A stretch of DNA of 64,000 bases from Candidatus Omnitrophota bacterium (GCA_023247705.1 JAHFFY010000001.1:33358-97357), one strand, 5' to 3'; counted from the stretch's first letter, positions 35,323 to 52,692 are shown. Made by a program: numbers and translations. Notes: a model not told the origin generated them from the letters alone.

Positions 35323-36515
35323 AAATCGCATTTGTCAATACAGAATATTTGCCGGTTCCGCCTACACGCGGTGGAGCGGTTGAAGAGTGGATCGAAAAGA
35401 TTGCGCAAAGTCTTAAAGAGCACGATATTTTTGTCTTGAGTTATGACGAAAAGCGTAAAAAATCATCAGATAAAAAATGGCATGTTCGATACTTTTGGTT
35501 CAAGCCGAATATTCTCGATAAACTCCTATTGTCAAATTATCGCCTACCGTTTAGACGTGATGATTCCAAGTGGCTATTTTATCCGTATTCTCTTTGGTGT
35601 GCGCAAGAATTAAAAGAAATAAAACCGGATGTGATTCATATTCATAATCGTCCGCATTTTGTGTGGATAATCAAGAAGCTGAACCCCGAAGCCAAAATTA
35701 TTCTGCATCTGCATCAGGTAAGCGCGATGGAAGAGAAAAATTTATGGACGAAAGAATTGATTGCCAGCATTGATTTATTTGTCGGTTGCAGCCAGTTTAT
35801 CGTTGATGAGATGATTCAACGCTATGGCGTTGATAAATCGAAAACAGCGGTTTTTTACAATGGGCTTGATTTGAATGATTTTCCGTCTATTTCGCGAAAG
35901 CAAGAAAAACGTTTAGCGCTTCGCCTAGAAAATAACCTGGCTGATAAAACAACGATTTTGTATGTGGGGCGTTTGGTGGAAAATAAAGGTGTGCATCATC
36001 TGGTTCAAGCGGTACGAGATCTGATCCAGCGTAAATTTTCGAATATAAAGCTTGTTGTCTGCGGGGCATGCGGTTATGCTAGCCGGCACATGACTCCCTA
36101 TGTCCAAAGAATTTATAATATAGCGTATGAAGTTAATGAAAACGTCTTTTTTACCGGTTTTATCTCTCATGAAAAGATTTTAGATTATTATTTAATGGCG
36201 GATCTCGTTGTTATACCATCAGAAGTCCAGGAAGGTTTTTGTTTAGTGACTATCGAGAGTATGGCGGCCGGTGTTCCGGTGATGGCAACGAAGAGGGGAG
36301 GAATGCCCGAAATTATAGAACACCGAAAAACAGGCATCATTGTCGGTGAACCATCCGCGGCCAATATCGAACAGCATATTGAAGAGTTTCTTAAAAATCC
36401 TGAAGGCTTCAGGCAATATATTGCGATAGGTCGAAAAACGGTTGAAGAAAAATTTACCTGGGACATTGTAAGCCGTAACGTGGCCAAAGTATACATGGAG
36501 TTGCAAAATGCCTAG
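35319..36515 (+). CDS. Family 1 (GT4) glycosyltransferase
   Basis: GRLVENKG and QEGFCLVTIESMAAG (E-x7-E) motifs. ATGA overlaps the upstream stop. Confidence 0.8.
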   Translation: MKIAFVNTEYLPVPPTRGGAVEEWIEKIAQSLKEHDIFVLSYDEKRKKSSDKKWHVRYFWFKPNILDKLLLSNYRLPFRRDDSKWLFYPYSLWCAQELKEIKPDVIHIHNRPHFVWIIKKLNPEAKIILHLHQVSAMEEKNLWTKELIASIDLFVGCSQFIVDEMIQRYGVDKSKTAVFYNGLDLNDFPSISRKQEKRLALRLENNLADKTTILYVGRLVENKGVHHLVQAVRDLIQRKFSNIKLVVCGACGYASRHMTPYVQRIYNIAYEVNENVFFTGFISHEKILDYYLMADLVVIPSEVQEGFCLVTIESMAAGVPVMATKRGGMPEIIEHRKTGIIVGEPSAANIEQHIEEFLKNPEGFRQYIAIGRKTVEEKFTWDIVSRNVAKVYMELQNA

Positions 36516-37392
36516 AGTTAGTATCCTTACCCCGGCTTACAATTGTGAGAAATATATCGTTGAAACGATTGAATCTGCTTTAAAACAGACTTTTCAGGAT
36601 TTTGAAATGATTATCGTTGATGATGGCTCGATCGATCGTACACAGGAAATCGTGGAGCGATATGTTTTCAATTTTCCAGAAAAAATCCGTTATATTTATC
36701 AAGCCAATGGAGGTCCGGCCAAGGCCAGAAATAGAGGGATCAGAGAATCGAAAGGAGAGTATCTTGCTCTTTTAGATGCGGATGATTTGTGGTTACCCAA
36801 TCGGCTAGAAGAGACGGTGGCCGTTTTGAATCGAAAAGCTGAAGTTGGACTCGTCCACGCAAAAACAAAAAGAATTTTAGAAGATGGGCGTTTCACCGAA
36901 ACACCTCGAAAGAATATTCGGTATTTATCCGGACACATCTTTCCTTATATCCTATTGAGAAAAGCAAATATTTCCTGTTTAACCGTTCTTTTTCGGAAAG
37001 AGTGTGTAGAGAAAGTTGGTTATTTTGATGAGACGAAAGAATGTTTCGGTGTTGAAGACCGCGATCTATGGTTAAGGATTGCTTCAAATTATCGAATCGA
37101 ATTTATTGATAAAGTCCTCGGATATTACCGGCTTCGCTCCAGCGGGATTAGTCAGGGAGAGAAAATCCAGGCTAACAAGATTTACGTGATCAATAAGCAT
37201 TGTTCCAGTGAACAACATAAAACTCTAAAGAAACTTGCGCTGGCCCAGATTTACCGGGAATTAGGCGATAGTCTGCTTGCTCAGAAAGAAATTGTCCAAG
37301 CCAAATACTATTACTGGCAGTCTATTTCTTTTTATCCATTCAAATTTTGGCCTTGGATCAATTTATTGAGATTATCATTAAGGAGATATTAA
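36508..37392 (+). CDS. Family 2 glycosyltransferase
   Basis: VSILTPAYN, VDDGSIDRT and LDADD motifs are present. Confidence 0.8.
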   Translation: MPRVSILTPAYNCEKYIVETIESALKQTFQDFEMIIVDDGSIDRTQEIVERYVFNFPEKIRYIYQANGGPAKARNRGIRESKGEYLALLDADDLWLPNRLEETVAVLNRKAEVGLVHAKTKRILEDGRFTETPRKNIRYLSGHIFPYILLRKANISCLTVLFRKECVEKVGYFDETKECFGVEDRDLWLRIASNYRIEFIDKVLGYYRLRSSGISQGEKIQANKIYVINKHCSSEQHKTLKKLALAQIYRELGDSLLAQKEIVQAKYYYWQSISFYPFKFWPWINLLRLSLRRY

Positions 37393-37393
37393 C

Positions 37394-38566
37394 ATGAAAA
37401 AAATTCTGCTTCTATCAACGAATGCCGATGACGCACGTATTCTTCTTTGGTGTATGAGAGAAGCAAATTATGACTGTGTTGTGGCTGGTAATTTATCTCA
37501 GAATCGCGAATTGGAACATTTTCCTTTATGTCATAAACTTTATGCGATCCCAGAACAGTGGAGTATTGAGAAGAGGTCTCCGGAAATAATCCCCATTCTA
37601 GGGTCGATTATGGCGCATGAAAAAACCAGTATTTTATTGCCTACGGGATTTGAAAGTATAAAATTTTTAAGTCAGCATTACGAGAATGTCAAAAAATTTG
37701 GTCCGGTTATTCCTCTCCCAACGCTTGCGATGATCGATACCTTAAGCAATAAATTCAGTTTTGCGAAATTTTGTAAAGAGAATGATATCCCTCATCCGGA
37801 TATTTATCTTTTGGAAGATCTCGCGGTGGTTAGAGATAAAAAATTGCCTATTCGGTTTCCGTTATTAACCAAACCCTTGTCGATGTCAGCAGGGAAAGGG
37901 ATTTATGTGTTTCATAATGGAGATGAACTTTATAAATATCTGCAAGAAGGTCGCAGTGACCTATCCAATGCGCTGCCGTTGTTATTGCAAGAGTTCATTC
38001 CTGGACAAGATATTGATTTTAATGGTTTCGCACAAGATGGCCGTTTATGCGCCTGGACGATCCAAAAGGCGATTGAAATTCCTAGGGGCGACAAAGAACC
38101 TCTGCGCTGGATCCAATTTTTGCCTAATGACGAGGTCAAGAACATCGGAGAAAGGATCATCGAAAAGAGTGGATACTCCGGCCCAATCCATATTGATATG
38201 CGGGTGGATGAACGCAACGGCCAGGTAAAGTCGATCGAGATTAATCCGCGTTTTTGGGCGAGCACGTTTTATTCGATTTGCGACGGCGTCAATTTCCCGG
38301 CGATCGCAGTCCAATGCACCTGGGATCGTCAATACACCGCGACACCGAACAATTCCCATCGCATCTGGGGAACGCCGCATCGTATTCCACTTTTATTCTT
38401 ACAATATAAAGATTTAATCTTTCTTAAGTACGGTCTGCAGCATACTTGGTTGCAGGTGAAATTTGAGATTTTGAATCGTTATTTTAATTTTATCCAAAAT
38501 TATAATCAAAAGAATAAGAACGGTCATAAGAGTAATATTGCGGCTTTAGCCAATACAATTAAATGA
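37394..38566 (+). CDS. ATP-grasp enzyme (second copy in locus)
   Basis: FPLLTKP.SMSAGKGI, LLQEFIPG and EINPRFW motifs are present. Confidence 0.7.
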   Translation: MKKILLLSTNADDARILLWCMREANYDCVVAGNLSQNRELEHFPLCHKLYAIPEQWSIEKRSPEIIPILGSIMAHEKTSILLPTGFESIKFLSQHYENVKKFGPVIPLPTLAMIDTLSNKFSFAKFCKENDIPHPDIYLLEDLAVVRDKKLPIRFPLLTKPLSMSAGKGIYVFHNGDELYKYLQEGRSDLSNALPLLLQEFIPGQDIDFNGFAQDGRLCAWTIQKAIEIPRGDKEPLRWIQFLPNDEVKNIGERIIEKSGYSGPIHIDMRVDERNGQVKSIEINPRFWASTFYSICDGVNFPAIAVQCTWDRQYTATPNNSHRIWGTPHRIPLLFLQYKDLIFLKYGLQHTWLQVKFEILNRYFNFIQNYNQKNKNGHKSNIAALANTIK

Positions 38567-38703
38567 TTCTGCGCTAGATCATGACAGCTTATCTGTGTTA
38601 TTCATTAATCCGCAGAAAAGATGGGAAGCGGGTTTGAAAGTATTAATTTTTTATTGAAAATAGGCTAGCGAAAACGGTTTAATTTTAGAGAGAGACAGAA
38701 AAT

Positions 38704-40044
38704 ATGATCGGAACACTAAAAATTATAACGCCAATAATATTTTATTTCATTGGCATCATGTTCATTTTTGTCTCTTTTTCCGGAAAAGTGCGGTGGACGA
38801 TCTTGTTTATTACCTTTTTGTTGCCTTTACAAAATATTATCGATAAGTTGCAGCAATTTCCTTTTGGTAAAGATTATATTGATATCTTGCTCATTGCGAT
38901 GACATTTGGATGGGTCGTTGACGCTGCTCAATACAAGCGGAAAACGTTTGAGAAATCACCGATCAATACTATTGCGATTGTACTCATGTGCTATATCTAT
39001 TTGTCATTATGGAATGGGTATCTTTATTTGCACTATTTTGCCCCATTTGATCTATCGGATCCTCGGTTGAAATCCTGCAAAAATTTTCTTATTTTACCGT
39101 TTTTATATTTTTTGACATTTAATAATATCCATGACAAAAAATGGGTTTGGCGAACGTTTGCCATGATGTGTTTATCGATGGTATTTATGAATTACTATCT
39201 TCTGCGTCAGATTGAGATGTTTTCCACCATCACCTCCCGGGATAAAATACATGGCACATTCGTTGATCTTGGCCCCAATGAAATCGCGGCATTTTACAAT
39301 CAATACTCTATGATCTTGTTGAGCATCATCTTTTTTATGAAGAACAATTTAAAAAAAATTTTATTGTTTATACTTTTTTGTGTAAATATTTTTTGCGTCG
39401 CCTTTCTTTTTTCTCGCGGGGCTTATTTAGGACTTGTGGCAGGATTGTTTTTCCTCTTTGCCATCAAACGAAAAGTTCTTCTTATCCCGCTTATTTTAGC
39501 GCTCTTGGCCTGGCAAACTGTTTTGCCGGCTAACGTAAAAGCCCGAATTGAAATGACCACCAATGCGCAAGGGGAATTGGACCCTTCGGCGCAAGGTCGT
39601 ATCATCATCTGGGAGCAAAGTATCTCGTTATTCAAAAGTCAGCCTATTTTTGGTGTCGGGTATGCCGTATTCCGCGAGTTAGGATACGGGTTGGGAGATA
39701 CACACAATATTTATCTGAAAATACTGACGGAACAGGGAGTCATTGGATTTATTATATTTCTGGTTCTTATCGGGACATTGTTTCGGGAGGGCTGGAAACT
39801 ATTCAAACGGGGGGACGATGATATGTCGAAGGCTTTGGGATTAGGTTTTGCCGCGTGTATCATTGTTCTGCTGGTTAATAATCTTTTTGGAAACCGCTGG
39901 ACTCATCCTGTGTTAAGTTCTTATTTTTGGATCATTGCTGGCTTAGTGGCTCGTTGCAATGTGTTAGCGGATCAATCGAATAAAGAACAACATCCTAATC
40001 GGAAAAAAAGAGAAAGAAGCCCGAGACTTTATGGAAGAATCTAG
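38704..40044 (+). CDS. O-antigen ligase/polymerase-like integral membrane protein (Wzy_C type)
   Basis: At least 10 hydrophobic helices. A loop with FSRGAYLG and a periplasmic segment precede GVGYAVF...H, typical of the O-antigen-ligase-like family found in exosortase loci. Confidence 0.7.
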   Translation: MIGTLKIITPIIFYFIGIMFIFVSFSGKVRWTILFITFLLPLQNIIDKLQQFPFGKDYIDILLIAMTFGWVVDAAQYKRKTFEKSPINTIAIVLMCYIYLSLWNGYLYLHYFAPFDLSDPRLKSCKNFLILPFLYFLTFNNIHDKKWVWRTFAMMCLSMVFMNYYLLRQIEMFSTITSRDKIHGTFVDLGPNEIAAFYNQYSMILLSIIFFMKNNLKKILLFILFCVNIFCVAFLFSRGAYLGLVAGLFFLFAIKRKVLLIPLILALLAWQTVLPANVKARIEMTTNAQGELDPSAQGRIIIWEQSISLFKSQPIFGVGYAVFRELGYGLGDTHNIYLKILTEQGVIGFIIFLVLIGTLFREGWKLFKRGDDDMSKALGLGFAACIIVLLVNNLFGNRWTHPVLSSYFWIIAGLVARCNVLADQSNKEQHPNRKKRERSPRLYGRI

Positions 40045-41176
40045 TCCAATTCCAAAATATCATGTTCTTTTTCTGACGGATTGCTGTCCGGATCTTGCGG
40101 GAGGAGCGGAAAAACAAATTTATGAACTCAGTAAAAGAATCAACCCGAAATTATTCCGGGTTACGGTGATCAGCCTGGATCCTCAAGGCGTTATTCCACA
40201 GCATTTATTTAATGCCGTTGGATGCCAGATCAAAAATTTTCCAGTTAAAAAAATGTACGGACTATCGGGTATTTTACAAGGGATTCATTTTATTAAATTC
40301 TTAAAAAAAGAAAAAGTGGATATTGTTCTGACTTATCATTTTTGCTCTGATATCTGGGGATGCATTTTTGCGCATTTGGCCGGAGTGAAGCTGGTCGTTT
40401 CGAATCGAAGAGATATGGGGTTTTGGCGCAAAAGTTGGCATACCCTTGCTTATCGGATGATTCAACATTGGATAAATAAAATTATCGTGGTCTCTCATTC
40501 GGTCAAAGAAATTGTCAAGAAAACAGAAAATGTTCCTGATGATAAAATACAGGTCATTTATAACGGAATCGATCTTTCTGAAAATGGTCCCCCAAGCACA
40601 CCCGTCGTGTCTTTAAAGAAACAACTTGGAATCAATATGGATGAACCTGTTGTGATGCATGTCGCAAATTTTAAAACTGTTAAAGGACATGATTATTTAT
40701 TAGAGGCTATGGTTTCGGTGGTGAAGTCTGTTCCGAAAGTCAAGTTAGTTCTCATTGGTGAAGATGAAATGAACGGACGACTTCAGAATCTGGCTGTGCA
40801 ATTAGGGATCGATAAGAATTTGCTTTTTCTCGGCAAACGGGATGATGTCCAGAATTTATTACCCATGGCAGACATTTGTGTTTTGCCGTCCTTAAGCGAA
40901 GGGATGTCGAACGCTATTCTTGAATACATGAAATGGGGGAAGCCGGTGATTGCAACGCAAGTTGGAGGAAACCCAGAACTCATTGAAGAAGGACGAAGCG
41001 GACTGCTCGTTCCACCGAGAAATTCTCAAAGTTTAGGAATGGCCATGATCCATCTGCTTCGAGATCCCTTTTTATGCCGACAAATGGGAAAAAACGCAAG
41101 AAAAAGAGTAGAAGAGATATTTACGATCGAAAAAATGGTTCAAAACTACGAACAGCTTTTTGAATCTCTCATCTAA
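40031..41176 (+). CDS. Family 1 (GT4) glycosyltransferase
   Basis: ANFKTVKGH and SEGMSNAILEYMKWG (E-x7-E) motifs are present. Confidence 0.8.
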   Translation: MEESSPIPKYHVLFLTDCCPDLAGGAEKQIYELSKRINPKLFRVTVISLDPQGVIPQHLFNAVGCQIKNFPVKKMYGLSGILQGIHFIKFLKKEKVDIVLTYHFCSDIWGCIFAHLAGVKLVVSNRRDMGFWRKSWHTLAYRMIQHWINKIIVVSHSVKEIVKKTENVPDDKIQVIYNGIDLSENGPPSTPVVSLKKQLGINMDEPVVMHVANFKTVKGHDYLLEAMVSVVKSVPKVKLVLIGEDEMNGRLQNLAVQLGIDKNLLFLGKRDDVQNLLPMADICVLPSLSEGMSNAILEYMKWGKPVIATQVGGNPELIEEGRSGLLVPPRNSQSLGMAMIHLLRDPFLCRQMGKNARKRVEEIFTIEKMVQNYEQLFESLI

Positions 41177-41187
41177 TATGATTTCGC

Positions 41188-43089
41188 ATGGATACGATGC
41201 CAAAACGATTAACTGCAATTATTTCAATTTTCCTAATTTTATTAGCAGAAATATGTGCTGCGTCCTATATTGATACATTTCTATATTCATTTCATCGCAG
41301 GTTGTTAGTTTCGCGTTTTGTTTTTTTCTTAGTCGTGATGCTGAGTTTGTCTGTAGCGGTGCGATTAAAATCGAAGATAGCCGTTTTCGTGAGAGAATTC
41401 TTTTCAACGCCTGAACATCCTTTGAACTTGGCCGTTTTTCGGGTCGTTTTATTCGGGACGCTCTACCAAAGTTCGGATCTCGTCCAGTTGATTCAATTCA
41501 GCCAAATCCCTTCGGTCTTGATTTTCCCTCCGTTCGGTACAGAATGGATTCTTCGGTTTCTTCCGATCAATACCCATTTGGCGATTATCAGCTGGGTTAT
41601 TTTTCGTATTTTTTGCTTAAGCGCTATGATCGGTTATTGCACGCGCATTAGTATTTTAGGGACAATTCTTTCAGCGCTATATGTCTTGGGGATTCCCCAA
41701 TTTTTTGGCAAAGTTGATCATCCCTATCTTCACCTCATTTGGTTCGCCATGATTTTAAGCGTCAGTCCGTGTGCAGATCTTGGGTCAGTCGATGCATTAT
41801 TAACGTTAAAGAAGACGAAAGCTGTCAGCTTAAGAAAAATAACCCCATCTCTTGAATATGCATTACCATTACGCTTTGTCTGGTTACTCATAGGGATAAT
41901 TTATTTTTTTCCTGGCGTTTGGAAGTTATGGAAGGGTGGTTTTGATTGGGCACTGAGCGAGAATATACAATTCACGCTTTACCTTAAATGGTATGAATTT
42001 TCTGATTGGGTTTCTTCATTTCGGTTGGATCACCATCCCATTCTTTATCGCCTTTTTGGACTTGGAGCGATTGTTTTTGAACTCTCATTCATTTTCTTGA
42101 TTTTTCTACCGCGTATGCGTCTTTGGATTGCCGGTATAGGACTTTTATTCCATAATTTGACCAATCTTGTCTTTCGTATTTCCTTCTGGAATTTACAAAC
42201 CTGTTACGTTGCCTTTGTCAATTGGCATCAGGTTTTTCAAAAGATAGGGAAGAGGTTCTCTAGAGAAAAATTATATGTCATCTATGATGGACACTGTTCT
42301 TTTTGCATACAAACCGTCAACTGCTTGCAGATGTTTGATGTATTTGATCAATTGATATGTGTCAATGCGAATGATAGAAATCAATTAAATGTGCATCCCT
42401 TGTCTGGGCTTGATCGAGAGGCTATTTTAAAGGACATGCATGTTGTCGATGGAAAAAATGTTTATTTGGGTTTTTCCGCTTACCGTGCTTTAGCCAGACG
42501 GATTCCCATATGCTGGATATTCCTGCCGTTTTGCTATCTTGGTTTTGTGAATCGGATCGGCAATCAAGTTTACCGAACGATTGCGGATCATCGTCAATGT
42601 GCGATCAATGTGAACAAAACCTTTGAGGCCCAATCCCATCCCTTGCCTGGGTCTTCTTTAAATGGCATCGTTGTGGTCGGGATATTATCAGTATTGATGA
42701 ATATTTATGTTGGGACCAAACAGATCACCCAGGGCTGGCCGTTTGCCTGTTATCCTACCTTTTCTGATCTCGCCCATGGCACAACAACGACGATCGAGAT
42801 AGAAGCGGATAGTTTTAACGGCAAGAAAGTTGTCTTAACTCAACATCAAATGAGTAATAATTTTGAAGAACATCGTTTTCGCGGATTGTTAAGTAAAATC
42901 CTGGCAACCAAGGATAAAAAGCTACAAGAAATGCAACTAAACGCTTTATGGACACTTTACACGCGATATAATTCTCATTTAGGGAATATCAAGACTGTTT
43001 ACTTCTATCGTGTTGAACGGCTAACTTCTCCCGAAATGAAAAAACATAATTTGCTGAAACGAGAATTAATTCTGGTGAACGAATTTTAA
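41188..43089 (+). CDS. HTTM (vitamin-K-dependent gamma-carboxylase-like) membrane domain fused to a DCC-family thiol-disulfide oxidoreductase domain, plus an unknown C-terminal region
   Basis: The N-terminal polytopic region starts with the HTTM-style LNLAVFRVVLFG. It is followed by LYVIYDGHCSFCIQTVNCL (DCC/DUF393 DG-x-C-x-x-C motif). The last ~150 aa are unassigned. Confidence 0.6.
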   Translation: MDTMPKRLTAIISIFLILLAEICAASYIDTFLYSFHRRLLVSRFVFFLVVMLSLSVAVRLKSKIAVFVREFFSTPEHPLNLAVFRVVLFGTLYQSSDLVQLIQFSQIPSVLIFPPFGTEWILRFLPINTHLAIISWVIFRIFCLSAMIGYCTRISILGTILSALYVLGIPQFFGKVDHPYLHLIWFAMILSVSPCADLGSVDALLTLKKTKAVSLRKITPSLEYALPLRFVWLLIGIIYFFPGVWKLWKGGFDWALSENIQFTLYLKWYEFSDWVSSFRLDHHPILYRLFGLGAIVFELSFIFLIFLPRMRLWIAGIGLLFHNLTNLVFRISFWNLQTCYVAFVNWHQVFQKIGKRFSREKLYVIYDGHCSFCIQTVNCLQMFDVFDQLICVNANDRNQLNVHPLSGLDREAILKDMHVVDGKNVYLGFSAYRALARRIPICWIFLPFCYLGFVNRIGNQVYRTIADHRQCAINVNKTFEAQSHPLPGSSLNGIVVVGILSVLMNIYVGTKQITQGWPFACYPTFSDLAHGTTTTIEIEADSFNGKKVVLTQHQMSNNFEEHRFRGLLSKILATKDKKLQEMQLNALWTLYTRYNSHLGNIKTVYFYRVERLTSPEMKKHNLLKRELILVNEF

Positions 43090-43091
43090 AT

Positions 43092-44234
43092 ATGTATATA
43101 AGCGCATTCCCTACGTTAACCATAAAAACATTGTTTAATCCATTCCCGCAGCGGTCCTGGGATAGACATTTCCCTTTTCAAAAACCTATTTTTTTCTATC
43201 GGGGAGCGAATGCGGTTTGGAGTGCGGTTAAAATTTTAAAGTTGCCGCCCCAATCCCATGTCTTGGTCCCAGCCTATCATTGCGGGGTCGAAATAAGCGC
43301 AGTCCTGAAAGCAGGCGGATTCATTCAGTTTTATAATATTAAAAACGATTTGCTGGTTGATTTGGAGGATATCCAGCGAAAAATAAATCATGAAACAAAG
43401 GCGATTCTTGTGATTCACTATTTCGGATTTCCGCAACCCATCCGGGAAATTAAACGACTCTGCGATTCAAAAAAAATATTTTTAATCGAAGATTGCGCCC
43501 ACGCTTTGTTCGGCCGCATTCCAGAAGGAATGTTAGGCAGTTTTGGAGATGCCAGTATTTTCAGTTTTCAGAAAAGTCTTCCGGTCGCGGATGGAGGGGC
43601 GATGATCCTCAAGAAGGAAAAACTTGAAGAATCCCGGATGTTAAGACAACCGCCGGGATTAACCGTCCTGAGAGGTCTGAGCGTTTTATGGATGGAACAT
43701 CTAAAAATGTTCCATCAAACTGTTTATCAATTTTTAGAAGGATTCATTTTTAACCCTCTTCGGTATTTATTGAAACAATTAAAGAAAATTCCGACCGAAT
43801 CATTTCAAATTAAGACAGCAAGCACGCATGAATTTGACGAAGGACTGACCGTTCTTGGCATGTCGAATGTTTCCTTGAAGATCAGTCAAAACATTGATCC
43901 TGATCTTGTGATTCAAAAGCGCAGAAAAAATTTTCAATTTCTAAAAGAAGGATTAAAGAATGTTAAAGGAATTGCATTCCTTTATCACGATTTAGCAGAA
44001 GGGATTTGTCCTTTGTTTTTTCCGATCTTAGCGGATGATCGGAATTTTTTGCAGGAGAGACTAAATCAGAAATCAATCGGAACATTTATCTTCGGCAAGA
44101 TACTTCATCCCCATCTGCCGCGGGAAAAATTTCCGTCGGCTGAATTTGTTTCGAACAAAAACCTTTGTTTCCCCATTCATCAGGATTTAGACGAAATTCA
44201 TCTAAAATATATGATCGAAGCGATCACAGAATGA
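43092..44234 (+). CDS. DegT/DnrJ/EryC1/StrS-family PLP-dependent aminotransferase-like protein
   Basis: Family-typical blocks are VLVPAYHCGVEISA, LIEDCAHALFG and IFSFQKSLPVADGG (PLP-Lys context). Confidence 0.65.
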   Translation: MYISAFPTLTIKTLFNPFPQRSWDRHFPFQKPIFFYRGANAVWSAVKILKLPPQSHVLVPAYHCGVEISAVLKAGGFIQFYNIKNDLLVDLEDIQRKINHETKAILVIHYFGFPQPIREIKRLCDSKKIFLIEDCAHALFGRIPEGMLGSFGDASIFSFQKSLPVADGGAMILKKEKLEESRMLRQPPGLTVLRGLSVLWMEHLKMFHQTVYQFLEGFIFNPLRYLLKQLKKIPTESFQIKTASTHEFDEGLTVLGMSNVSLKISQNIDPDLVIQKRRKNFQFLKEGLKNVKGIAFLYHDLAEGICPLFFPILADDRNFLQERLNQKSIGTFIFGKILHPHLPREKFPSAEFVSNKNLCFPIHQDLDEIHLKYMIEAITE

Positions 44235-44235
44235 T

Positions 44236-45390
44236 ATGCGTATTGCTCATCTGATCAGCAGTAGCGGTTTTTTTGGAGCGGAGAAGGTTGTCTTAACCTT
44301 AGCCGAGGCCTTTTCCACGAAAGGAACGATGACATCCTTGGGAACAAGGCTGGATTTTGTTTCGATTGGGACACTGTTAGATCAACGACAACCGAATCTT
44401 ACCTTGCTGGAAAAGGCAAGAGAGAGAAAAATCTCAACTTTTACTCTCGAAAGTAGAGGCCGGTTTGATTTTCGTCCTGTATCGCAGTTGAAAGCTTATC
44501 TCAAGGTGAATAAAATCGACGTTCTTCACACGCATAATTATAAATCAGACTTGATTGGTTTTTGGGCAGCCCAATCCGCTGGGATCCCGGTTGTCGCCAC
44601 CGCGCACGGCTTTACTGATATGACGCAGACCGTGAGCATTTACGAAGGGTTGGACCGCTGGATGTTGAAACATTTTTTTGGAAAAGTGGTTGTGGTGACG
44701 AACCAGTTGTTGAAGGATTTTCCCGTTAAAAAGCGAGTGGTTATTCCTAATGGTGTTTTGCTGAATGATCAGAACTCAAATCGCATAAGACAAGATCTCC
44801 GACGAACTTTGGGCGTCAAAGATCAGGATTATCTTGTTGCGACCATAGGCCGGCTGAGCAAAGAAAAAAATCAGATCTTGTTTCTGGAAGCGGCACAGCA
44901 GTTGATTACGCGGCATCGTCATGTCAAATTTCTTATTGTTGGATCAGGACCAGAAGAACATAAATTAAAGCAAAAAGCGGAACAAATGAGATTATCAGCG
45001 AATGTGATATTCACCGGATTAATCAGTGATATATCCCCGATTTATCAAGCGATTGATTTGTTTGTTTTGTCATCACTGACGGAAGGAATTCCCATGACGA
45101 TCTTGGAGGCGATGGCCTCGCGCGTTCCTGTCGTTGCCACTCGGGTTGGAGGGGTTCCAGAATTGATTGATGATCGTAAAACTGGCTTGCTGGTTCCGTC
45201 AAATAATGCATTAAAACTTGCCGATCGGATCGAAGCCTTGATGTTGAATCAAGGTCTACAAAAAGAACTGACCATAAACGCATTTGAATTGGTCAAATCC
45301 AAATTTTCTTTAGACTCTATGGTGGAATCGTATCGAAAAGTATACCAAGACATTCTGCAGTCCCAAAAACTCATGGCGAAAGGCATTTAA
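44236..45390 (+). CDS. Family 1 (GT4) glycosyltransferase
   Basis: GRLSKEKN, GSGPE and TEGIPMTILEAMAS (E-x7-E) motifs are present. Confidence 0.8.
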   Translation: MRIAHLISSSGFFGAEKVVLTLAEAFSTKGTMTSLGTRLDFVSIGTLLDQRQPNLTLLEKARERKISTFTLESRGRFDFRPVSQLKAYLKVNKIDVLHTHNYKSDLIGFWAAQSAGIPVVATAHGFTDMTQTVSIYEGLDRWMLKHFFGKVVVVTNQLLKDFPVKKRVVIPNGVLLNDQNSNRIRQDLRRTLGVKDQDYLVATIGRLSKEKNQILFLEAAQQLITRHRHVKFLIVGSGPEEHKLKQKAEQMRLSANVIFTGLISDISPIYQAIDLFVLSSLTEGIPMTILEAMASRVPVVATRVGGVPELIDDRKTGLLVPSNNALKLADRIEALMLNQGLQKELTINAFELVKSKFSLDSMVESYRKVYQDILQSQKLMAKGI

Positions 45391-45453
45391 ACATTTCATT
45401 GATCAATTTGAGAAAGGTCAAATTTAAGTTGGGATAGGAGGTTATCAAATATC

Positions 45454-46650
45454 ATGAAGATTTTATTTGTTGCACCCCGTTTACCCGTCCCGGCTGATAC
45501 GGGAGGAAAAATTCGGACATTCAATCTTTTAAAACAAATCGCGAAAAAAGCCGAGACCAGATTGGTTTGTTTTTCCTTTGAGAAGGAAGATAAGGGACTG
45601 GCCAATGAGCTCGATAAAAATTTAGGTATTTTAACCTCCCTGATTCCGATGCTGCCGCTGGGGTTGATCAATAATATCAAAAATGTCTTAGCCGATCCTT
45701 TGCCGTATTCCATCATCAAATATTATTCACCGGCCATGGAGGAGACTTTAACCTCTTTCAAAGCAATCGGAACATTTGACGCGGTTCATATCGATCATTT
45801 GCATATGGGACATTACATCAAGTGTTTGAGTCCATTACCATGTATTCTGGATGAACATAATGTCGAATATAGAATTCTGGAACGTTGCGCCAAATTTGAA
45901 CGCTCATTTTTCAAACGGTGTTTTTTTTCACAACAAGTTCTCAAAATGAAAACCTTTGAAGCGAGTAAAATTCAGGAATGTTCTCAATTCTGCGCTGTCT
46001 CTGATGATGATCGTAAGGATCTTTTGACATTAGGCCAGGGAAAAGCCAAAGGACACACCATTGCTAATGGAGTGGATACGGAATATTTTCATCCTCAGGC
46101 GTTTACTTCTATGGAGGAAGAATCGTCCTTGGTTTTTACCGGATCGATGGACTGGTTGCCGAACGAAGATGCGGTCTTGTTTTTTTGCAAGGACATTCTG
46201 CCTCTGATCTGGAAAGATAAACCCGAGGTCAAATTTTATGTGGTGGGTAAGGCGCCTTCATCTGCGATCCAAGAACTTGCGCGCAAAGACCCCCGGATCA
46301 TCGTCACCGGTCGGGTCGATGATGTTCGTCCCATTATGGCGAAAGCAAAGGTTTTTGTTGTTCCGATGAGAGTTGGCGGGGGGACGCGATTGAAGATTCT
46401 GGAAGCCATGGCGATGCAAAAGGCCGTAGTCTCCACAAAAGTCGGAGCGGAAGGGATCCAATACACAGAAGGTAAAAATATCCTCATTGGAGATTCTCCT
46501 GAGGCATTTGCAAAGCAGGTGATTGCGGCTCTCAATGATTCGGCTAAAACCACTGAAATCGGAATTCTAGCAAGAGACCTGGTTTGTCGACAATATGATT
46601 GGAACAGTATTGGTGAACGATTATGGAGCATTTATGCAAAATTCGCCTAA
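45454..46650 (+). CDS. Family 1 glycosyltransferase of the PEP-CTERM/exosortase-associated sugar transferase type
   Basis: N-terminus MKILFVAPRLPVPADTGGKIRTFNLLK and a C-terminal GGGTRLKILEAMAM block. TAGGAGG lies upstream of the start. Confidence 0.7.
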   Translation: MKILFVAPRLPVPADTGGKIRTFNLLKQIAKKAETRLVCFSFEKEDKGLANELDKNLGILTSLIPMLPLGLINNIKNVLADPLPYSIIKYYSPAMEETLTSFKAIGTFDAVHIDHLHMGHYIKCLSPLPCILDEHNVEYRILERCAKFERSFFKRCFFSQQVLKMKTFEASKIQECSQFCAVSDDDRKDLLTLGQGKAKGHTIANGVDTEYFHPQAFTSMEEESSLVFTGSMDWLPNEDAVLFFCKDILPLIWKDKPEVKFYVVGKAPSSAIQELARKDPRIIVTGRVDDVRPIMAKAKVFVVPMRVGGGTRLKILEAMAMQKAVVSTKVGAEGIQYTEGKNILIGDSPEAFAKQVIAALNDSAKTTEIGILARDLVCRQYDWNSIGERLWSIYAKFA

Positions 46651-47419
46651 GCAAAATCCGATCGTGTTAATGTACCATGGCATCATCAGCCATCCGGATT
46701 CCATCCCAAATAATAGAGAACCGGGAGCGGACTTATATGATGTTTCGCTGGATCAATTTAATGCACAGATGGAATTTATAAAAACGTATGGGTATCCTGT
46801 GGTTAGGTTTGGTCATGAGGACGATCTCGGAAAGAAGAGAAATGTCGTAATGACATTCGACGATGGCGAGAGCAATAATTTTGATGGCGCGTTTGCTGTT
46901 CTCAGGAAGTTCGGCTTTCCGGCTTATTTCTTTGTAATCGTGCATCGGATTGGACGTCCCGGTTATATGAGCTGGGAAATGCTTCACGAATTAATTGCTA
47001 ATGGGATGATCATTGGATCACACGGTCTAAGTCACGCAATTTTAACTCAATGCACAAATCGGCAAATCGAAGAAGAGTTTACAGAATCCAAATCTATTTT
47101 AGAAAAAAATTTGAATTCCCAGGTGAATGATTTTTCTGTTCCCCGGGGTTTTTATAACGCAAGGGTTATCGAGGCCGCACGGAGGGCTGGTTATAAAAAT
47201 ATTTTTATCTCCACTAAACTTACGAACGAAGCCGATCATGGTATTGAACGAATCGCCATCAAGAGAAACTGGACGATGGAACGTTTTCAACAGAGTTTAG
47301 AAGGCCGAGTCTCTCTTGGCGAAATTATCTTGGATTTGATCAAAACTACTTGCAAAAAATTTTTCGGCGGGGCGATTTACAATCGTATCAGAAATAAATT
47401 ACTCGGTTCAAAATTATGA
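46634..47419 (+). CDS. Polysaccharide deacetylase (NodB-type), second copy
   Basis: MTFDDGESN and GSHGLSH motifs. ATG 46634 has GGAG upstream and overlaps the previous gene by 17 nt. Confidence 0.75.
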   Translation: MQNSPKQNPIVLMYHGIISHPDSIPNNREPGADLYDVSLDQFNAQMEFIKTYGYPVVRFGHEDDLGKKRNVVMTFDDGESNNFDGAFAVLRKFGFPAYFFVIVHRIGRPGYMSWEMLHELIANGMIIGSHGLSHAILTQCTNRQIEEEFTESKSILEKNLNSQVNDFSVPRGFYNARVIEAARRAGYKNIFISTKLTNEADHGIERIAIKRNWTMERFQQSLEGRVSLGEIILDLIKTTCKKFFGGAIYNRIRNKLLGSKL

Positions 47420-48564
47420 AAACCATATTCTGGATTTTATTCATATTAATCGTGTACTGTTATTTTGGATATCCGATCCTGCTTAGCGTTTTCGCCAGCT
47501 GCCGTACGCGAAAAGTTATAAAACAAGAAATTTTTCCAACCATTTCCGTTGTGATCTCGGTTGCGAATGAGGAATCGGTCATTGAGAAGAAGATGAGTAA
47601 CCTTTTATCCATGGATTATCCTTCCGACAAACTGGAAATTTTAATCGGATCGGATGGTTCAACGGATAAAACGAATGATATCGTCCGAAATTTTAACGAC
47701 AAACGCATTCAGCTAATTGTTAGTTCACAGCGAAAAGGGAAGATGGCGACCGTTAATCAACTGGTTCAACTGGCCCAAAACGAAATGATCGTTTTTACGG
47801 ATGCCCGTCAGATGTTTGACCGAGTTGCTTTTAAGGAATTGGTTTTTAACTTTGCCGATCCACACGTAGGATGTGTCAGCGGAGAGTTGATTTTTACGAA
47901 AAAGGAAGGCTCGACCGCTCAGGGAATTAATCTATACTGGGAATATGAAAAATTTATGCGTCAAAAAGAAAGCCAACTTCATTCCATGATCGGGGCAACA
48001 GGAGCGATCTATGCGATCCGTCGAAAATTGTTTGTTCCTGCGCCGACCAATATGATTTTGGATGATGTTTTTACGCCGCTTAAAATTGTTCAACAAGGGT
48101 ACCGTGCGATCTTTGAGGGACAGGCGATCGCTTACGATGAAGCGGCAAACAACCCAAAAGAAGAATATGCGCGGAAAGCCAGAACCTTAGCCGGCAATTA
48201 TCAGATATTTTTTGTTTTGCCGGACATCTTTAACCCCTTGAAAAGTCCTTTGGCGATTCAGATGTTCTCGCATAAACTGCTAAGGGTTTTGATCCCATTT
48301 TTTTTGATTTTTTTGCTCATTATCAATTTTAAATTAAGAAACAATCAATTTTTTATTTTTATTTTATGGGGCCAGATCCTTTTCTACGGGATGGCGATAT
48401 TGGGAAGCTTGGCAAAAAAACCAAAATATGCTATTCTTAAGCCTATTTCTAAAATGTGTTATATTCCCTATGTCTTTTGTCTCCTTAATTTCTCTGCTTT
48501 AGCTGGATTTTGGCGCTTTGTTCGGTCTTCGCAGACGGTCACTTGGGAGAAGGCAAGGACTTAG
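47416..48564 (+). CDS. Membrane-embedded family 2 glycosyltransferase (synthase-like architecture)
   Basis: An N-terminal TM, ISVVISVANEE, GSDGSTD and FTDARQ, then three or more C-terminal TM helices. Confidence 0.7.
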   Translation: MKTIFWILFILIVYCYFGYPILLSVFASCRTRKVIKQEIFPTISVVISVANEESVIEKKMSNLLSMDYPSDKLEILIGSDGSTDKTNDIVRNFNDKRIQLIVSSQRKGKMATVNQLVQLAQNEMIVFTDARQMFDRVAFKELVFNFADPHVGCVSGELIFTKKEGSTAQGINLYWEYEKFMRQKESQLHSMIGATGAIYAIRRKLFVPAPTNMILDDVFTPLKIVQQGYRAIFEGQAIAYDEAANNPKEEYARKARTLAGNYQIFFVLPDIFNPLKSPLAIQMFSHKLLRVLIPFFLIFLLIINFKLRNNQFFIFILWGQILFYGMAILGSLAKKPKYAILKPISKMCYIPYVFCLLNFSALAGFWRFVRSSQTVTWEKART

Positions 48565-48586
48565 CGAAACGATTCAAAATAACGAT

Positions 48587-49405: not shown

Positions 49406-49407
49406 AT

Positions 49408-50043: not shown

Positions 50044-50080
50044 AAAATATCAAATCGTTGGGACCTCAAATCATGAATAA

Positions 50081-50110
50081 TTCTGTTTGTTAAACAGAAA
50101 ATTTTTTTTC
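50081..50110 (+). terminator. Candidate rho-independent terminator after epsI
   Basis: TTCTGTTT-gtt-AAACAGAA hairpin followed by an A-TTTTTTTT run. The stem is AT-rich and therefore weak. Confidence 0.45.
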
Positions 50111-50297
50111 GATCCGAAAAAGGGATGAAAATTAAAAACAACATGCGTTTAATAAATTCAACATCTTTTGATTCTAATTTTATAATTTCCCAATAAATTG
50201 TTGGAAATTGTTAAGTTTTTATAGTTTCTCTTATTGTAAGGTTATATTTAGCAATAATTTATAATAGAGGTGTTTCTTAAATGATTTTTAAAAAACT

Positions 50298-52660: not shown

Positions 52661-52692
52661 TCGATCCCTTATATATGAAATAAGATAAAAAA

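What the first reader, a model, noticed from the sequence alone, without database searches (positions are those of the whole stretch)
41188..43089. HTTM (gamma-carboxylase-like) membrane domain fused to a DCC thiol-disulfide oxidoreductase inside the EPS locus
The N-terminal ~340 residues are polytopic and begin with the HTTM-type LNLAVFRVVLFG signature. A DG-x-C-x-x-C DCC/DUF393 motif (VIYDGHCSFCIQ) follows, then ~230 further residues containing two predicted TM helices and an unassigned C-terminal ~150 aa. In animals the HTTM domain is the vitamin-K-dependent carboxylase/epoxidase, and its bacterial homologs have no established function. A fusion to a CxxC redox domain would supply a built-in reductant partner, analogous in logic to VKOR-thioredoxin fusions. 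Its position among glycosyltransferases and next to a DegT-type enzyme suggests a quinone- or redox-dependent modification of the polymer, or of PEP-CTERM proteins.
Basis: partly seen in the sequence, partly recalled or inferred. Interest (0 to 1): 0.5.

Follow-up and report, generated by a model that had tools for sequence, protein, structure and literature searches.

The report
Bacterial carboxylase-like membrane enzyme with redox insert
This gene encodes a real, widespread but uncharacterised bacterial relative of the human vitamin-K-dependent carboxylase that keeps the quinol-activating catalytic residues, carries an optional thioredoxin-like domain on the cytoplasmic side and a new outward-facing tail domain, and tends to sit among sugar-polymer genes.

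Summary
Window 41188-43089 (+) is one uninterrupted 633-aa ORF inside an exosortase/PEP-CTERM exopolysaccharide locus. Residues 364-470 are a DCC1-like domain (Pfam E 5e-14) with an intact DG-C-x-x-C motif. The N-terminal domain misses Pfam HTTM on its own. It is still a GGCX/HTTM domain: 15 of 53 homologs hit HTTM, hhalign to human GGCX gives E 2.8e-6, and all top 16 PDB fold matches are GGCX. The catalytic Lys (K246 = K218) and its acid partner (E298 = D263) are invariant. The fusion is not a mis-join, because the same architecture occurs in about 50 genomes from many phyla.

The DCC domain sits in the loop that is cytoplasmic in GGCX, while the active site faces outward. It is absent from 25 of 72 family members, and its cysteines are lost in 9 of 49 members that have it. 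It is therefore an accessory, not an obligatory built-in reductant. The conserved core is HTTM + one TM helix + an invariant WPxxxYPxF linker + a ~100-aa domain with no known fold relative. Glycosyltransferases are enriched next to the gene (odds ratio 5.3, p 2e-6). The DegT neighbour and the exosortase are not recurrent. The function remains inferred.

The parts
41188..43089 (+). Whole gene: 633-aa HTTM - DCC1-like - TM9 - C-terminal domain protein. The stop is at 43087-43089. An alternative start lies at 41197.
41203..41364 (+). Residues 6-59: two hydrophobic helices forming an N-terminal extension ahead of the HTTM core. It is poorly conserved (most homologs align from residue 38 onward) and has lower pLDDT.
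41392..42258 (+). Residues 69-357: HTTM / GGCX-like transmembrane catalytic domain. Residues 69-335 align to GGCX 52-300. It includes the P-x-N-L-A-V-F-R motif (R85 = GGCX R68).
41710..41733 (+). Residues 175-182: K175-x-x-H178...H182 on the outer-face loop between TM helices 3 and 4. H182 aligns to GGCX H160 (quinone/substrate pocket). K175 and H178 are invariant in the family.
41923..41925 (+). K246, aligned to GGCX K218, the base that deprotonates vitamin K hydroquinone. It is invariant in all 66 aligned family members.
42079..42081 (+). E298, aligned to GGCX D263, the partner of K218. It is an invariant Glu, as in the giant-virus 'epoxidase-only' homologs. GGCX D263E retains 25% activity.
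42277..42597 (+). Residues 364-470: DCC1-like (DUF393) thioredoxin-fold domain, inserted in the loop that is cytoplasmic in GGCX.
42295..42306 (+). C370-S-F-C373, the CxxC redox motif of the DCC domain (D367-G368-x-C-x-x-C).
42601..42654 (+). Residues 472-489: low-confidence, K/R-rich linker on the cytoplasmic side. The conserved C471 lies just before it.
42655..42717 (+). Residues 490-510: last transmembrane helix, positionally equivalent to GGCX TM9. It carries the tail to the outer side.
42736..42762 (+). Residues 517-525: W-P-F-A-C-Y-P-T-F linker motif (W517, P518, Y522, P523, F525), invariant or nearly so in members with and without DCC. It occupies the position of the GGCX linker between the TM domain and the luminal domain.
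42778..43086 (+). Residues 531-633: C-terminal alpha/beta domain (bb-aaa-bb), predicted to lie outside the cytoplasm. It has no Pfam family and no significant relative among solved structures.
40031..41176 (+). Upstream neighbour: GT4 glycosyltransferase (TIGR03088-like, below cut-off). Its stop lies 11 nt before the gene.
43092..44234 (+). Downstream neighbour: DegT/DnrJ/EryC1-like protein, starting 2 nt after the stop codon. It is not a recurrent neighbour (1 of 53 loci).
15649..57330 (+). Surrounding co-directional exosortase/PEP-CTERM EPS locus. It holds Poly_export, Wzz/GNVR, AAA_22 ATPase, kinase-like ATPase, NAD-epimerase, two deacetylases, two ATP-grasp proteins, a FemAB-like protein, ABC-2/Wzt, about 15 GT2/GT4 genes, Wzy_C-like, exosortase + EpsI, a priming transferase, a PEP-CTERM protein, TPR, histidine kinase and sigma-54 activator.

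Best explanation
The gene encodes a member of a widespread, uncharacterised bacterial branch of the vitamin-K-dependent carboxylase (GGCX/HTTM) superfamily. Shown: it has a GGCX-like transmembrane catalytic domain with the quinol-deprotonating Lys (K246) and its acidic partner (E298) invariant, and with several quinone-pocket positions conserved (H182, W254, F321). It also has one further TM helix, an invariant WPxxxYPxF linker and a family-specific ~100-aa domain. A DCC1-like CxxC domain is inserted in the loop before that last helix. Inferred from GGCX topology and the positive-inside rule: the N-terminus, the DCC domain and its linkers are cytoplasmic, while the catalytic Lys, an aromatic-rich cap loop and the C-terminal domain face the periplasm. 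Inferred mechanism: like GGCX and the viral 'epoxidase-only' homologs, the enzyme binds a membrane quinol (probably menaquinol). It oxygenates the quinol with O2 to make a strong base at the outer membrane face. That base is used to deprotonate, and possibly carboxylate, a substrate held by the linker and C-terminal domain. Because the Glu-pocket residues of GGCX are not kept and the gene family is enriched next to glycosyltransferases, the substrate is more likely a glycan, a lipid-linked glycan intermediate or another envelope component than a Gla-type protein. The DCC domain is an accessory cytoplasmic redox or regulatory module. It may pass cytoplasmic reducing power to the quinone or quinone epoxide at the inner leaflet, but it is not part of the essential catalytic core.
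For: Fold and homology. Catalytic residues: hhalign pairs K246 with K218, E298 with D263, H182 with H160, W254 with W223, F321 with F286 and H322 with H287. These positions are invariant or nearly so in 49 DCC-containing and 17 DCC-less members. Their roles in GGCX come from PMC12589487, PMC12647623 and PMC13486548. Topology: K/R density is 0.15-0.25 in the loops predicted to be cytoplasmic and 0.05-0.07 in those predicted to be outside. A GT2 domain is fused at the N-terminus in P0092, and a glycoside-hydrolase-like domain follows the C-terminal module in P0217. Core versus accessory: 47 HTTM+DCC+C-term against 25 HTTM+C-term architectures, and 9 of 49 DCC domains lack an intact CxxC. The C-terminal module defines more than 1,000 cluster representatives and sits almost always at the C-terminus of 450-700-aa proteins. 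Glycan link: the GT gradient has odds ratio 5.3, p 1.9e-6, 28 of 53 dereplicated loci have at least one GT nearby, and the association is equal with and without DCC. In the window itself the gene is tightly packed between a GT4 and a DegT-like gene in a 40-kb EPS operon array.
Against: No biochemical data exist for any member. The window protein is below Pfam's HTTM threshold, and the family profile does not reach GGCX by plain hmmsearch. The carboxylase-specific positions N158/N159 are not conserved (Y180/L181). The F299 position (CO2 stacking) is W in the window protein and is not conserved in the family. The region equivalent to GGCX 374-418 cannot be aligned. Carboxylation is therefore unsupported, and the chemistry may stop at epoxidation or differ altogether. 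The source organism is probably an Omnitrophota-like bacterium, and relatives occur in Thermodesulfobacteriota and other lineages often found in anoxic habitats, which sits uneasily with an O2-dependent reaction. Nearly half of the loci (25 of 53) have no glycosyltransferase in the held flank, and no neighbour is universally conserved. No UDP-sugar dehydrogenase or other obvious carbon-acid sugar pathway is present in the window. Topology is inferred, not measured, and I could not inspect model coordinates.
Confidence: 0.5

Rival explanations
1. One reading: the DCC CxxC domain is the dedicated, built-in reductant of the HTTM enzyme. It would regenerate quinol from quinone or quinone epoxide in cis, as VKOR does for GGCX and as thioredoxin-like domains do in VKOR fusions. 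The two domains would then form an obligatory self-contained redox cycle.
For: The two domains are fused in about 50 genomes across many phyla. The CxxC is kept in 40 of 49 DCC-bearing members, and in 96-98% of the closest 53. The whole-chain model has pTM 0.90, which suggests a fixed domain arrangement. The DCC domain has a hydrophobic helix (439-457) that could touch the membrane. A DCC-family protein is listed among plastoglobule proteins, a prenylquinone-rich compartment.
Against: By GGCX homology and the positive-inside rule, the DCC domain is on the cytoplasmic side and the quinone pocket and catalytic Lys are on the outer side. 25 of 72 members lack the domain, and no standalone DCC gene is nearby. 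Five members keep the fold but have SxxC, CxxS, GxxC or no Cys, and four keep only a remnant. The extra conserved cysteines C195 and C339 are equally conserved with and without DCC, so no thiol relay tracks the domain. No quinone reductase activity is known for DCC1-like proteins, and no structure is available.
Confidence: 0.2
2. The protein is a true protein carboxylase that converts Glu (or Asp) residues of secreted PEP-CTERM proteins into Gla-like residues before exosortase processing.
For: The gene lies in a PEP-CTERM/exosortase locus that encodes PEP-CTERM proteins. The active site faces the compartment where such proteins emerge. H182 = H160 and W254 = W223 are conserved. A bacterial HTTM enzyme, MloH, does carboxylate an aspartyl residue.
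Against: An exosortase is present in only 1 of 53 dereplicated family loci. The Glu-binding residues N158/N159 are not conserved, and F299 is not conserved in the family. The C-terminal domain shows no similarity to the GGCX propeptide-binding domain. The family has E at the D263 position, like the viral homologs that were argued to be epoxidase-only.
Confidence: 0.07
3. The HTTM domain has been recruited for chemistry that does not use a quinol and O2. It could be a membrane-embedded general-base enzyme or a transporter-like scaffold acting on lipid-linked glycans. The conserved Lys/Glu pair would then serve another role, which would fit an anaerobic lifestyle.
For: Family members occur in lineages that are typically anaerobic (Omnitrophota, Thermodesulfobacteriota, Dadabacteria). 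The N290 position is T/I/V and F299 is not conserved. Nothing in the neighbourhoods points to quinone metabolism.
Against: The full set of quinol-activating and head-group pocket positions (K218, D263 as E, H160, W223, F286) is kept invariant or nearly so over very large phylogenetic distances. That is hard to explain if the quinol site were abandoned. Cyanobacteria, Acidobacteriota and other aerobes are among the main hosts.
Confidence: 0.15
4. The fusion is an assembly or annotation artefact: two ORFs joined by a frameshift near 42240.
For: None found.
Against: The reading frame is open throughout. An identical protein was called independently from two assemblies. Homologs align colinearly across the junction with conserved residues on both sides (W346, G354, Y366, D367, G368). 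The confident AF2 model spans the junction.
Confidence: 0.01

Closest known systems
[quoted passage not shown]
   Same: The fold of the transmembrane catalytic domain is the same: GGCX chains are the only significant PDB matches, with E down to 7.7e-8. Sequence-profile homology covers GGCX 52-300. The conserved positions are the catalytic Lys, its acidic partner and the quinone-pocket residues H160, W223 and F286. The overall plan is also shared: a TM core, a cytoplasmic loop, a last TM helix and an extracytoplasmic C-terminal domain.
   Different: Sequence identity is about 15%. Glu replaces Asp at position 263. The Glu-pocket residues N158/N159 are not kept. There is no detectable counterpart of the ~370-aa luminal propeptide-binding/Arch domain; a ~100-aa domain of unknown fold takes its place. 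A DCC1-like domain is inserted in the cytoplasmic loop. The protein is bacterial and sits in a polysaccharide locus.
HTTM + DCC1-like fusion protein of Melghirimyces thermohalophilus (A0A1G6IBF2) with its adjacent TM + DUF5819 partner (bioRxiv 10.64898/2026.08.19.745780)
   Same: The domain order is the same, HTTM then DCC1-like. In both cases a single TM helix followed by an extracytoplasmic domain completes a GGCX-like whole.
   Different: In Melghirimyces the TM + cap element is a separate protein (DUF5819) and the fusion protein has 447 aa. Here the TM helix and cap domain are fused in cis, and no family member hits the DUF5819 Pfam model at E<=0.01. Homology between the two caps could not be tested.
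Giant-virus gamma-carboxylase-like epoxidases (VKED; PMC13486548)
   Same: They retain K218, have Glu at the D263 position and lack the carboxylase-specific region. They were proposed to keep epoxidase activity only and to serve non-protein (lipid) substrates as part of a modular redox system.
   Different: The viral proteins are fused or adjacent to a sterol/fatty-acid desaturase and to VKOR. This family is instead fused to a DCC1-like domain and a novel C-terminal domain and is associated with glycosyltransferases.
MloH of malonomycin biosynthesis (Streptomyces)
   Same: It is the only bacterial HTTM enzyme with an assigned reaction (carboxylation of an aspartyl residue), which shows that the chemistry works in bacteria on non-Gla substrates.
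   Different: MloH belongs to a natural-product gene cluster and acts on a PKS-NRPS intermediate. According to the preprint it has a fused DUF5819-like region and no DCC domain.
VKOR-thioredoxin-like fusions (cyanobacteria, plants LTO1)
   Same: A quinone-utilising membrane domain is fused to a thioredoxin-fold CxxC domain.
   Different: In VKOR fusions both redox centres face the extracytoplasmic side and the pairing is the functional unit. Here the CxxC domain is predicted to be cytoplasmic, on the opposite side from the active site, and it is dispensable in a third of the family.
Standalone DCC1-like / DUF393 proteins (B. subtilis YuxK, Arabidopsis DCC1)
   Same: The Pfam family is the same, with a D-x-x-C-x-x-C motif near the start of the domain.
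   Different: Those are small soluble or peripheral proteins. Here the domain is an insertion between two TM helices of an HTTM enzyme.

Membership tests
HTTM / GGCX superfamily (Pfam PF05090) | The protein itself scores above threshold against the Pfam HTTM model | tested here: not met
   No PF05090 hit at E<=1 for the window protein. However, 15 of 53 full-length homologs at 35-45% identity do hit it, best E 3.5e-10.
HTTM / GGCX superfamily (Pfam PF05090) | Profile-level sequence homology to the GGCX transmembrane domain | tested here: met
   hhalign of family alignment A1 against human GGCX gives probability 88.3%, E 2.8e-6, 239 columns, window 69-335 to GGCX 52-300. Plain hmmsearch of the profile against PDB sequences found nothing.
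HTTM / GGCX superfamily (Pfam PF05090) | GGCX-like three-dimensional fold | tested here: met
   The AF2 model (pLDDT 90.2) gives Foldseek top 16 hits that are all GGCX, E 7.7e-8 to 8e-3, probability 1.00, TM about 0.4. The next hit has E>0.6.
HTTM / GGCX superfamily (Pfam PF05090) | Catalytic Lys (K218) with acidic partner (D263) | tested here: met
   K246 and E298 align to K218 and D263 and are invariant in 66 of 66 aligned members. D263E retains activity in GGCX.
HTTM / GGCX superfamily (Pfam PF05090) | Quinone head-group pocket residues (H160, W223, F286, F294, F299, N290) | tested here: inconclusive
   H182 = H160 (at least 90% conserved), W254 = W223 (invariant) and F321 = F286 (58 of 66) are kept. 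The N290 position is T/I/V, and the F294 and F299 positions are M/F and variable.
Gamma-glutamyl carboxylase proper (Glu to Gla) | Glu-binding pocket N158, N159, Y395, R436 and the region 374-418 required for carboxylation | tested here: not met
   N158/N159 align to Y180/L181 (family consensus y/H). Nothing aligns beyond GGCX residue 300. The isolated C-terminal module does not match GGCX.
Gamma-glutamyl carboxylase proper (Glu to Gla) | Vitamin-K-hydroquinone- and O2-dependent epoxidase/carboxylase activity | not testable with these tools
   Needs biochemistry.
DCC1-like thiol-disulfide oxidoreductase (PF04134 / DUF393) | Pfam model above the gathering threshold | tested here: met
   53.9 bits against 27.8, residues 364-470, covering profile positions 1-108 of 113. 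All 53 aligned homologs hit the model.
DCC1-like thiol-disulfide oxidoreductase (PF04134 / DUF393) | D-x-x-C-x-x-C motif at the start of the domain | tested here: met
   D367-G-H-C370-S-F-C373. The motif is intact in 40 of 49 DCC-bearing genome-survey members and degenerate in 9.
DCC1-like thiol-disulfide oxidoreductase (PF04134 / DUF393) | Thioredoxin-like fold and thiol-disulfide oxidoreductase activity | tested here: inconclusive
   The full model gives only weak glutaredoxin matches (E 1.4-4). No solved DCC structure is detectable by sequence. Activity is not testable here.
VKOR-thioredoxin-type fused redox pair | Both redox centres on the same side of the membrane, and obligatory co-occurrence of the two modules | tested here: not met
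   The DCC flanks are K/R-rich and sit at the position of the cytoplasmic GGCX loop, while the catalytic Lys is on the outer side. The DCC domain is absent from 25 of 72 members. Sidedness is inferred, not measured.
HTTM-DCC + DUF5819 two-protein system | A DUF5819 domain following a TM helix, as partner or fused | tested here: not met
   No DUF5819 hit at E<=0.01 in 53 full-length members or in 10 further representatives. Structural equivalence could not be tested, because AFDB was unavailable.
Exosortase / PEP-CTERM exopolysaccharide locus (context) | Exosortase EpsH + EpsI, PEP-CTERM proteins, Wza/Wzz-type export, a priming transferase and many GTs | tested here: met
   EpsH (222.8 bits), EpsI, the PEP-CTERM motif, Poly_export, Wzz/GNVR, Bac_transf and about 15 GT2/GT4 genes are present. 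The specific XrtA model is below its cut-off (184.9 against 208).

The most novel reading that the evidence does not exclude
This family is a quinol- and O2-driven 'strong-base' enzyme that acts on a glycan rather than a protein. It would use the vitamin-K-type alkoxide at the outer face of the membrane to abstract a weakly acidic C-H from a sugar residue of the nascent exopolysaccharide or its lipid-linked repeat unit. The outcome would be epimerisation, carboxylation or elimination. That would be the first vitamin-K-dependent modification of a polysaccharide, with the optional cytoplasmic DCC domain coupling the reaction to the cell's thiol redox state.
Probability: 0.1. Interest if true: 0.85.

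Novelty: new variant of a known kind. Interest (0 to 1): 0.45.

Why it matters
Apart from MloH, bacterial homologs of the vitamin-K-dependent carboxylase have no assigned function, and why bacteria keep this chemistry is unknown. This analysis defines a large, phylum-spanning subfamily with more than 1,000 cluster representatives. Its quinol-activating residues are invariant, its active site is predicted to face the periplasm, and it has its own C-terminal substrate-side domain. It is statistically linked to glycosyltransferase genes and is occasionally fused to GT2 or glycoside-hydrolase-like domains. That gives a concrete, testable place to look for a non-protein substrate of vitamin-K-type chemistry. 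The analysis also corrects an attractive but unsupported idea, namely that the CxxC domain is the enzyme's built-in VKOR-like partner. The practical consequence for annotation is that these proteins are currently named only 'DCC1-like thiol-disulfide oxidoreductase'. That name describes the dispensable insert and not the conserved catalytic core.

Tried and rejected
(1) A single-sequence Pfam/NCBIfam search for HTTM gave no hit. A plain hmmsearch of the family profile against PDB sequences also gave no hit. HTTM membership had to be established through homologs, hhalign and fold search.

(3) Idea: the conserved cysteines C195, C339 and C471 form a thiol relay from the DCC CxxC into the HTTM domain. 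C195 and C339 are just as conserved in DCC-less members, so this is rejected.

(4) Looked for standalone DCC genes next to DCC-less family members; found none.

(5) Looked for a universally conserved neighbour gene by all-against-all clustering and a bulk Pfam census; found none. The DegT-like gene, exosortase and ATP-grasp are specific to the window.

(6) Looked for standalone forms of the C-terminal module among short hits of the exhaustive search. They appear to be gene fragments, several starting inside the DCC domain.

(7) Tried to name the source organism by exact-sequence cluster look-ups; no names are attached. HemL homologs give only an approximate Omnitrophota placement.

(8) Looked for a UDP-sugar dehydrogenase, which would indicate uronic acids as a carbon-acid substrate, in the window; found none.

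(9) A literature search for functional work on bacterial HTTM or HTTM-DCC proteins found only one preprint that notes the fusion in passing, plus MloH.
Full report
OBSERVATION. Window 41188-43089 (+) is a single uninterrupted ORF of 633 aa. An identical protein that starts three residues later is on record from a 164-kb contig and from an independent short-read assembly with the same neighbours. Pfam finds a DCC1-like domain at residues 364-470 (53.9 bits, cut-off 27.8, E 5e-14). This domain contains VIYDGHCSFCIQ (D367-G-x-C370-x-x-C373). The window protein does not hit Pfam HTTM (PF05090) even at E<=1, and it hits no NCBIfam model.

IS THE N-TERMINAL DOMAIN HTTM? Yes.
- A homology search returned 267 relatives, most covering about 90% of the query at 35-45% identity. 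Of 53 that I aligned (A1), all hit DCC1-like and 15 hit PF05090 on their own, with best E 3.5e-10.
- I recovered the true human GGCX sequence from the PDB sequence file. hhalign of the family profile against it gives probability 88%, E 2.8e-6 and 239 aligned columns, mapping window 69-335 to GGCX 52-300.
- An AlphaFold2 model built on A1 is confident (pLDDT 90.2, pTM 0.90). A Foldseek search of the PDB returns GGCX chains as all of the top 16 matches (E 7.7e-8 to 8e-3, probability 1.00). Nothing else scores below E 0.6.
- A plain hmmsearch of the profile against PDB sequences found nothing, which shows how distant the relationship is.

CATALYTIC RESIDUES. The GGCX structure papers identify the following:
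- K218 is the base that deprotonates vitamin K hydroquinone, and it pairs with D263. D263E keeps 25% of activity.
- H160, W223, F286, F294 and F299 line the quinone/CO2 pocket.
- N158, N159, Y395 and R436 form the Glu pocket.
- Residues 374-418 are needed for carboxylation.

In the hhalign alignment K246 = K218, E298 = D263, H182 = H160, W254 = W223, F321 = F286 and H322 = H287. I aligned 49 DCC-containing and 17 DCC-less family members from a genome survey. K246, E298, W254, H178 and R311 are invariant, and H322, R85 and H182 are nearly so. The Glu-pocket positions N158/N159 are Y180/L181 and are not conserved, and the F299 and N290 positions vary. The family therefore keeps the quinol-activating machinery but not the Glu-specific part. 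The same pattern (K218 kept, Glu at position 263, carboxylase region missing) was described for giant-virus 'epoxidase-only' homologs.

ARCHITECTURE AND TOPOLOGY. The model shows these elements in order:
- an N-terminal pair of hydrophobic helices (6-59), poorly conserved;
- the HTTM helices up to about residue 357;
- an alpha/beta DCC domain (362-468);
- a low-confidence linker (470-489);
- one clear TM helix (490-510);
- an alpha/beta domain (531-633).

The DCC domain sits exactly where GGCX has the loop between its last two TM helices, and the final helix is positionally equivalent to GGCX TM9, which leads to the luminal domain. That this GGCX loop is cytoplasmic rests on my own knowledge of GGCX topology, not on a passage I retrieved here (a text search for 'cytosolic' and 'TM9' in PMC12647623 found nothing). 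The positive-inside rule, applied to 53 sequences, gives an independent check. K/R density is 0.20 before TM1, 0.25 in the TM6-TM7 loop, 0.15 after TM8 and 0.18 in the linker before TM9. It is 0.05, 0.07 and 0.06 in the TM1-TM2 loop, the TM3-TM4 loop and the segment after TM9. The CxxC domain is therefore predicted to be cytoplasmic. The catalytic Lys, the aromatic-rich cap loop (W254...W268...W274...D281, all invariant) and the C-terminal domain are predicted to face the periplasm. Two natural fusions fit this topology: a GT2 domain (a cytoplasmic enzyme type) at the N-terminus of P0092, and a DUF6298/apiosidase-like glycoside-hydrolase-type domain after the C-terminal module of P0217. Residues 439-457 lie within the DCC fold and are only weakly hydrophobic.

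CORE VERSUS ACCESSORY. A scan of one genome per species returned 80 loci from Cyanobacteria, Acidobacteriota, Chloroflexota, Planctomycetota, Omnitrophota, Bacteroidota, Thermodesulfobacteriota, Dadabacteria and others. Domain HMMs built from A1 classify 47 proteins as HTTM+DCC+C-term and 25 as HTTM+C-term with no DCC at all, and no standalone DCC gene lies in any flank. Among the 49 DCC domains:
- 40 have an intact CxxC;
- 5 keep the full fold with SxxC, CxxS, GxxC, SxxW or RxxW;
- 4 are remnants.

By contrast, the post-TM9 motif W517-P518-x-x-x-Y522-P523-x-F525 is invariant or nearly so in both classes. An exhaustive profile search with the C-terminal module finds 1,013 cluster representatives (578 at E<=1e-10). 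The module sits almost always at the extreme C-terminus of 450-700-aa proteins, and the short hits look like gene fragments. The conserved unit is thus HTTM + TM9 + WPxxxYPxF linker + C-terminal domain, and the DCC domain is an optional, decaying insert.

GENOMIC CONTEXT. In the window, the gene is packed between a GT4 gene (11-nt gap) and a DegT-like gene (2-nt gap). The surrounding co-directional locus of about 40 kb holds:
- Poly_export, Wzz/GNVR, AAA_22 and kinase-like ATPases, and an NAD-epimerase;
- two deacetylases, two ATP-grasp proteins and a FemAB-like protein;
- ABC-2/Wzt, a TylF-like methyltransferase and about 15 GT2/GT4 genes;
- a Wzy_C-like protein, exosortase + EpsI, a priming transferase and a PEP-CTERM protein;
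- a TPR protein, a histidine kinase and a sigma-54 activator, which together resemble the PrsT/PrsK/PrsR regulators of PEP-CTERM systems (that naming is from my own knowledge).

Across 53 dereplicated loci no neighbour is universal. The DegT-like gene and the exosortase each recur in 1 of 53 loci. Glycosyltransferases, however, make up 14% and 17% of genes at offsets 1 and 2, 7-10% at offsets 3-4, and 2-5% at offsets 5-8. Comparing offsets 1-2 with 5 or more gives odds ratio 5.3 and Fisher p 1.9e-6. 28 of 53 loci have at least one GT in the held flank. The association is the same with the DCC domain (16 of 30 loci) and without it (10 of 23), and 25 of the 36 GT neighbours within three genes are co-directional with the family gene. 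The link to glycan biosynthesis is therefore real but partial.

SOURCE ORGANISM. No names are attached to the window's proteins. All taxon-named relatives of its HemL (63-66% identity) are Candidatus Omnitrophica. This is a weak placement in or near Omnitrophota. Many such organisms live in oxygen-poor settings, which is a caveat for an O2-dependent mechanism.

MECHANISM. Shown: the fold, the conserved quinol-activating dyad and most pocket residues, the domain order, the dispensability of DCC, and the GT association. Inferred: the topology, and that the enzyme binds a membrane quinol, oxygenates it and uses the resulting strong base on a substrate presented at the periplasmic face by the linker and C-terminal domain. 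Given the lost Glu pocket and the glycan context, I favour a non-protein substrate related to glycans or the envelope. I see the DCC domain as an accessory cytoplasmic redox or regulatory module.

COMPARISON AND NOVELTY. The HTTM-DCC fusion is already catalogued, annotated as 'DCC1-like thiol-disulfide oxidoreductase family protein', and one preprint notes it in passing. No function has been published for this family. Four points are new here: the definition of the conserved core with its own C-terminal module, the evidence that DCC is optional and cytoplasmic, the invariance of the GGCX catalytic dyad, and the statistical link to glycosyltransferases. I rate it a new variant of a known kind. 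It is of moderate interest now and would be of high interest if a glycan substrate were demonstrated.

Noticed in passing
window 8248-10359 (+), with 10403-11359 and 11350-12633: A 703-aa triple fusion of porphobilinogen deaminase (HemC), a uroporphyrinogen-III C-methyltransferase-type TP_methylase domain and uroporphyrinogen-III synthase (HemD). HemB and HemL follow directly. The arrangement hints at a siroheme-type branch of tetrapyrrole synthesis.
   Followed up: no
window 50358-51224 (+): The priming sugar transferase (Bac_transf, 233 bits) also gives a PEP-CTERM motif hit above threshold (23 bits against 20.7) at its own residues 70-93, that is, inside the N-terminal part of an enzyme rather than at the C-terminus of a secreted protein.
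   Followed up: no
window 24891-26926 (+): An ABC-2 permease and a Wzt-type ATPase with a Wzt_C glycan-binding domain sit inside a locus that also has Wzy_C-like, Wzz/GNVR and Poly_export genes. Components of two different polysaccharide export routes are therefore interleaved.
   Followed up: no
window 22525-23730, 23751-24851, 37394-38566 (+): Two ATP-grasp proteins and a FemAB-like (Acetyltransf_6) protein lie among the glycosyltransferases, which suggests that the polymer is decorated with amino acids or peptides.
   Followed up: no
window 43092-44234 (+): In the DegT-like neighbour, the best matched stretch to the DegT/DnrJ/EryC1 model covers only residues 38-183 of 380 (two stretches were reported). 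All NCBIfam transaminase matches are far below their cut-offs. A candidate PLP-lysine context (FSFQKSLPVADGG) is present, but the C-terminal half is divergent. It is not a recurrent neighbour of the family (1 of 53 loci).
   Followed up: partly
proteins P0092 (906 aa) and P0217 (1,046 aa), from metagenomes: Two natural fusions of the whole HTTM-DCC-C-term protein exist: one to an N-terminal GT2 glycosyltransferase, and one to a C-terminal DUF6298/apiosidase-like glycoside-hydrolase-type domain. Both fusion partners are carbohydrate-active.
   Followed up: partly
loci L015, L025, L017, L037, L045 (full DCC fold) and L044, L060, L066, L068 (remnants): The DCC insert shows a decay series: CxxC goes to SxxC, CxxS or GxxC, then to no Cys, then to a half-domain remnant, and finally the domain is absent in 25 members. 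The HTTM catalytic residues stay invariant throughout.
   Followed up: yes
locus L023 4280-5689 and 5726-6106: In one Pyrinomonadaceae MAG the family gene is split into an HTTM+DCC ORF and a separate C-terminal-domain ORF 37 nt downstream. This is either a frameshift in the assembly or a natural split like the Melghirimyces two-protein system.
   Followed up: no
window 33516-34454 and 34366-35322 (+): Two adjacent GT2 ORFs overlap by 89 nt as listed. The second one's TTG start is probably called too far upstream.
   Followed up: no
window 53706-57330 (+) and 13651-15042 (-): A TPR protein, a GAF-histidine kinase and a sigma-54-dependent response regulator lie downstream of the EPS genes, resembling the PrsT/PrsK/PrsR regulators of PEP-CTERM systems. 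The sigma-54 gene rpoN lies just upstream of the locus on the opposite strand.
   Followed up: no
window 18806-19522 and 52837-53706 (+): Two ORFs inside the EPS locus (238 aa and 289 aa) have no meaningful Pfam match.
   Followed up: no
window 11350-12633 (+): All taxon-named homologs of this HemL (63-66% identity) come from Candidatus Omnitrophica MAGs. The window probably derives from an uncultured Omnitrophota-like bacterium with about 40% GC.
   Followed up: partly
window residues C195, C339, C471 of the 41188-43089 product: Three cysteines outside the CxxC are conserved in the 53 closest homologs (91%, 74% and 91%). C195 and C339 are also kept in DCC-less members, so they belong to the HTTM core. 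Their role is unexplained.
   Followed up: partly
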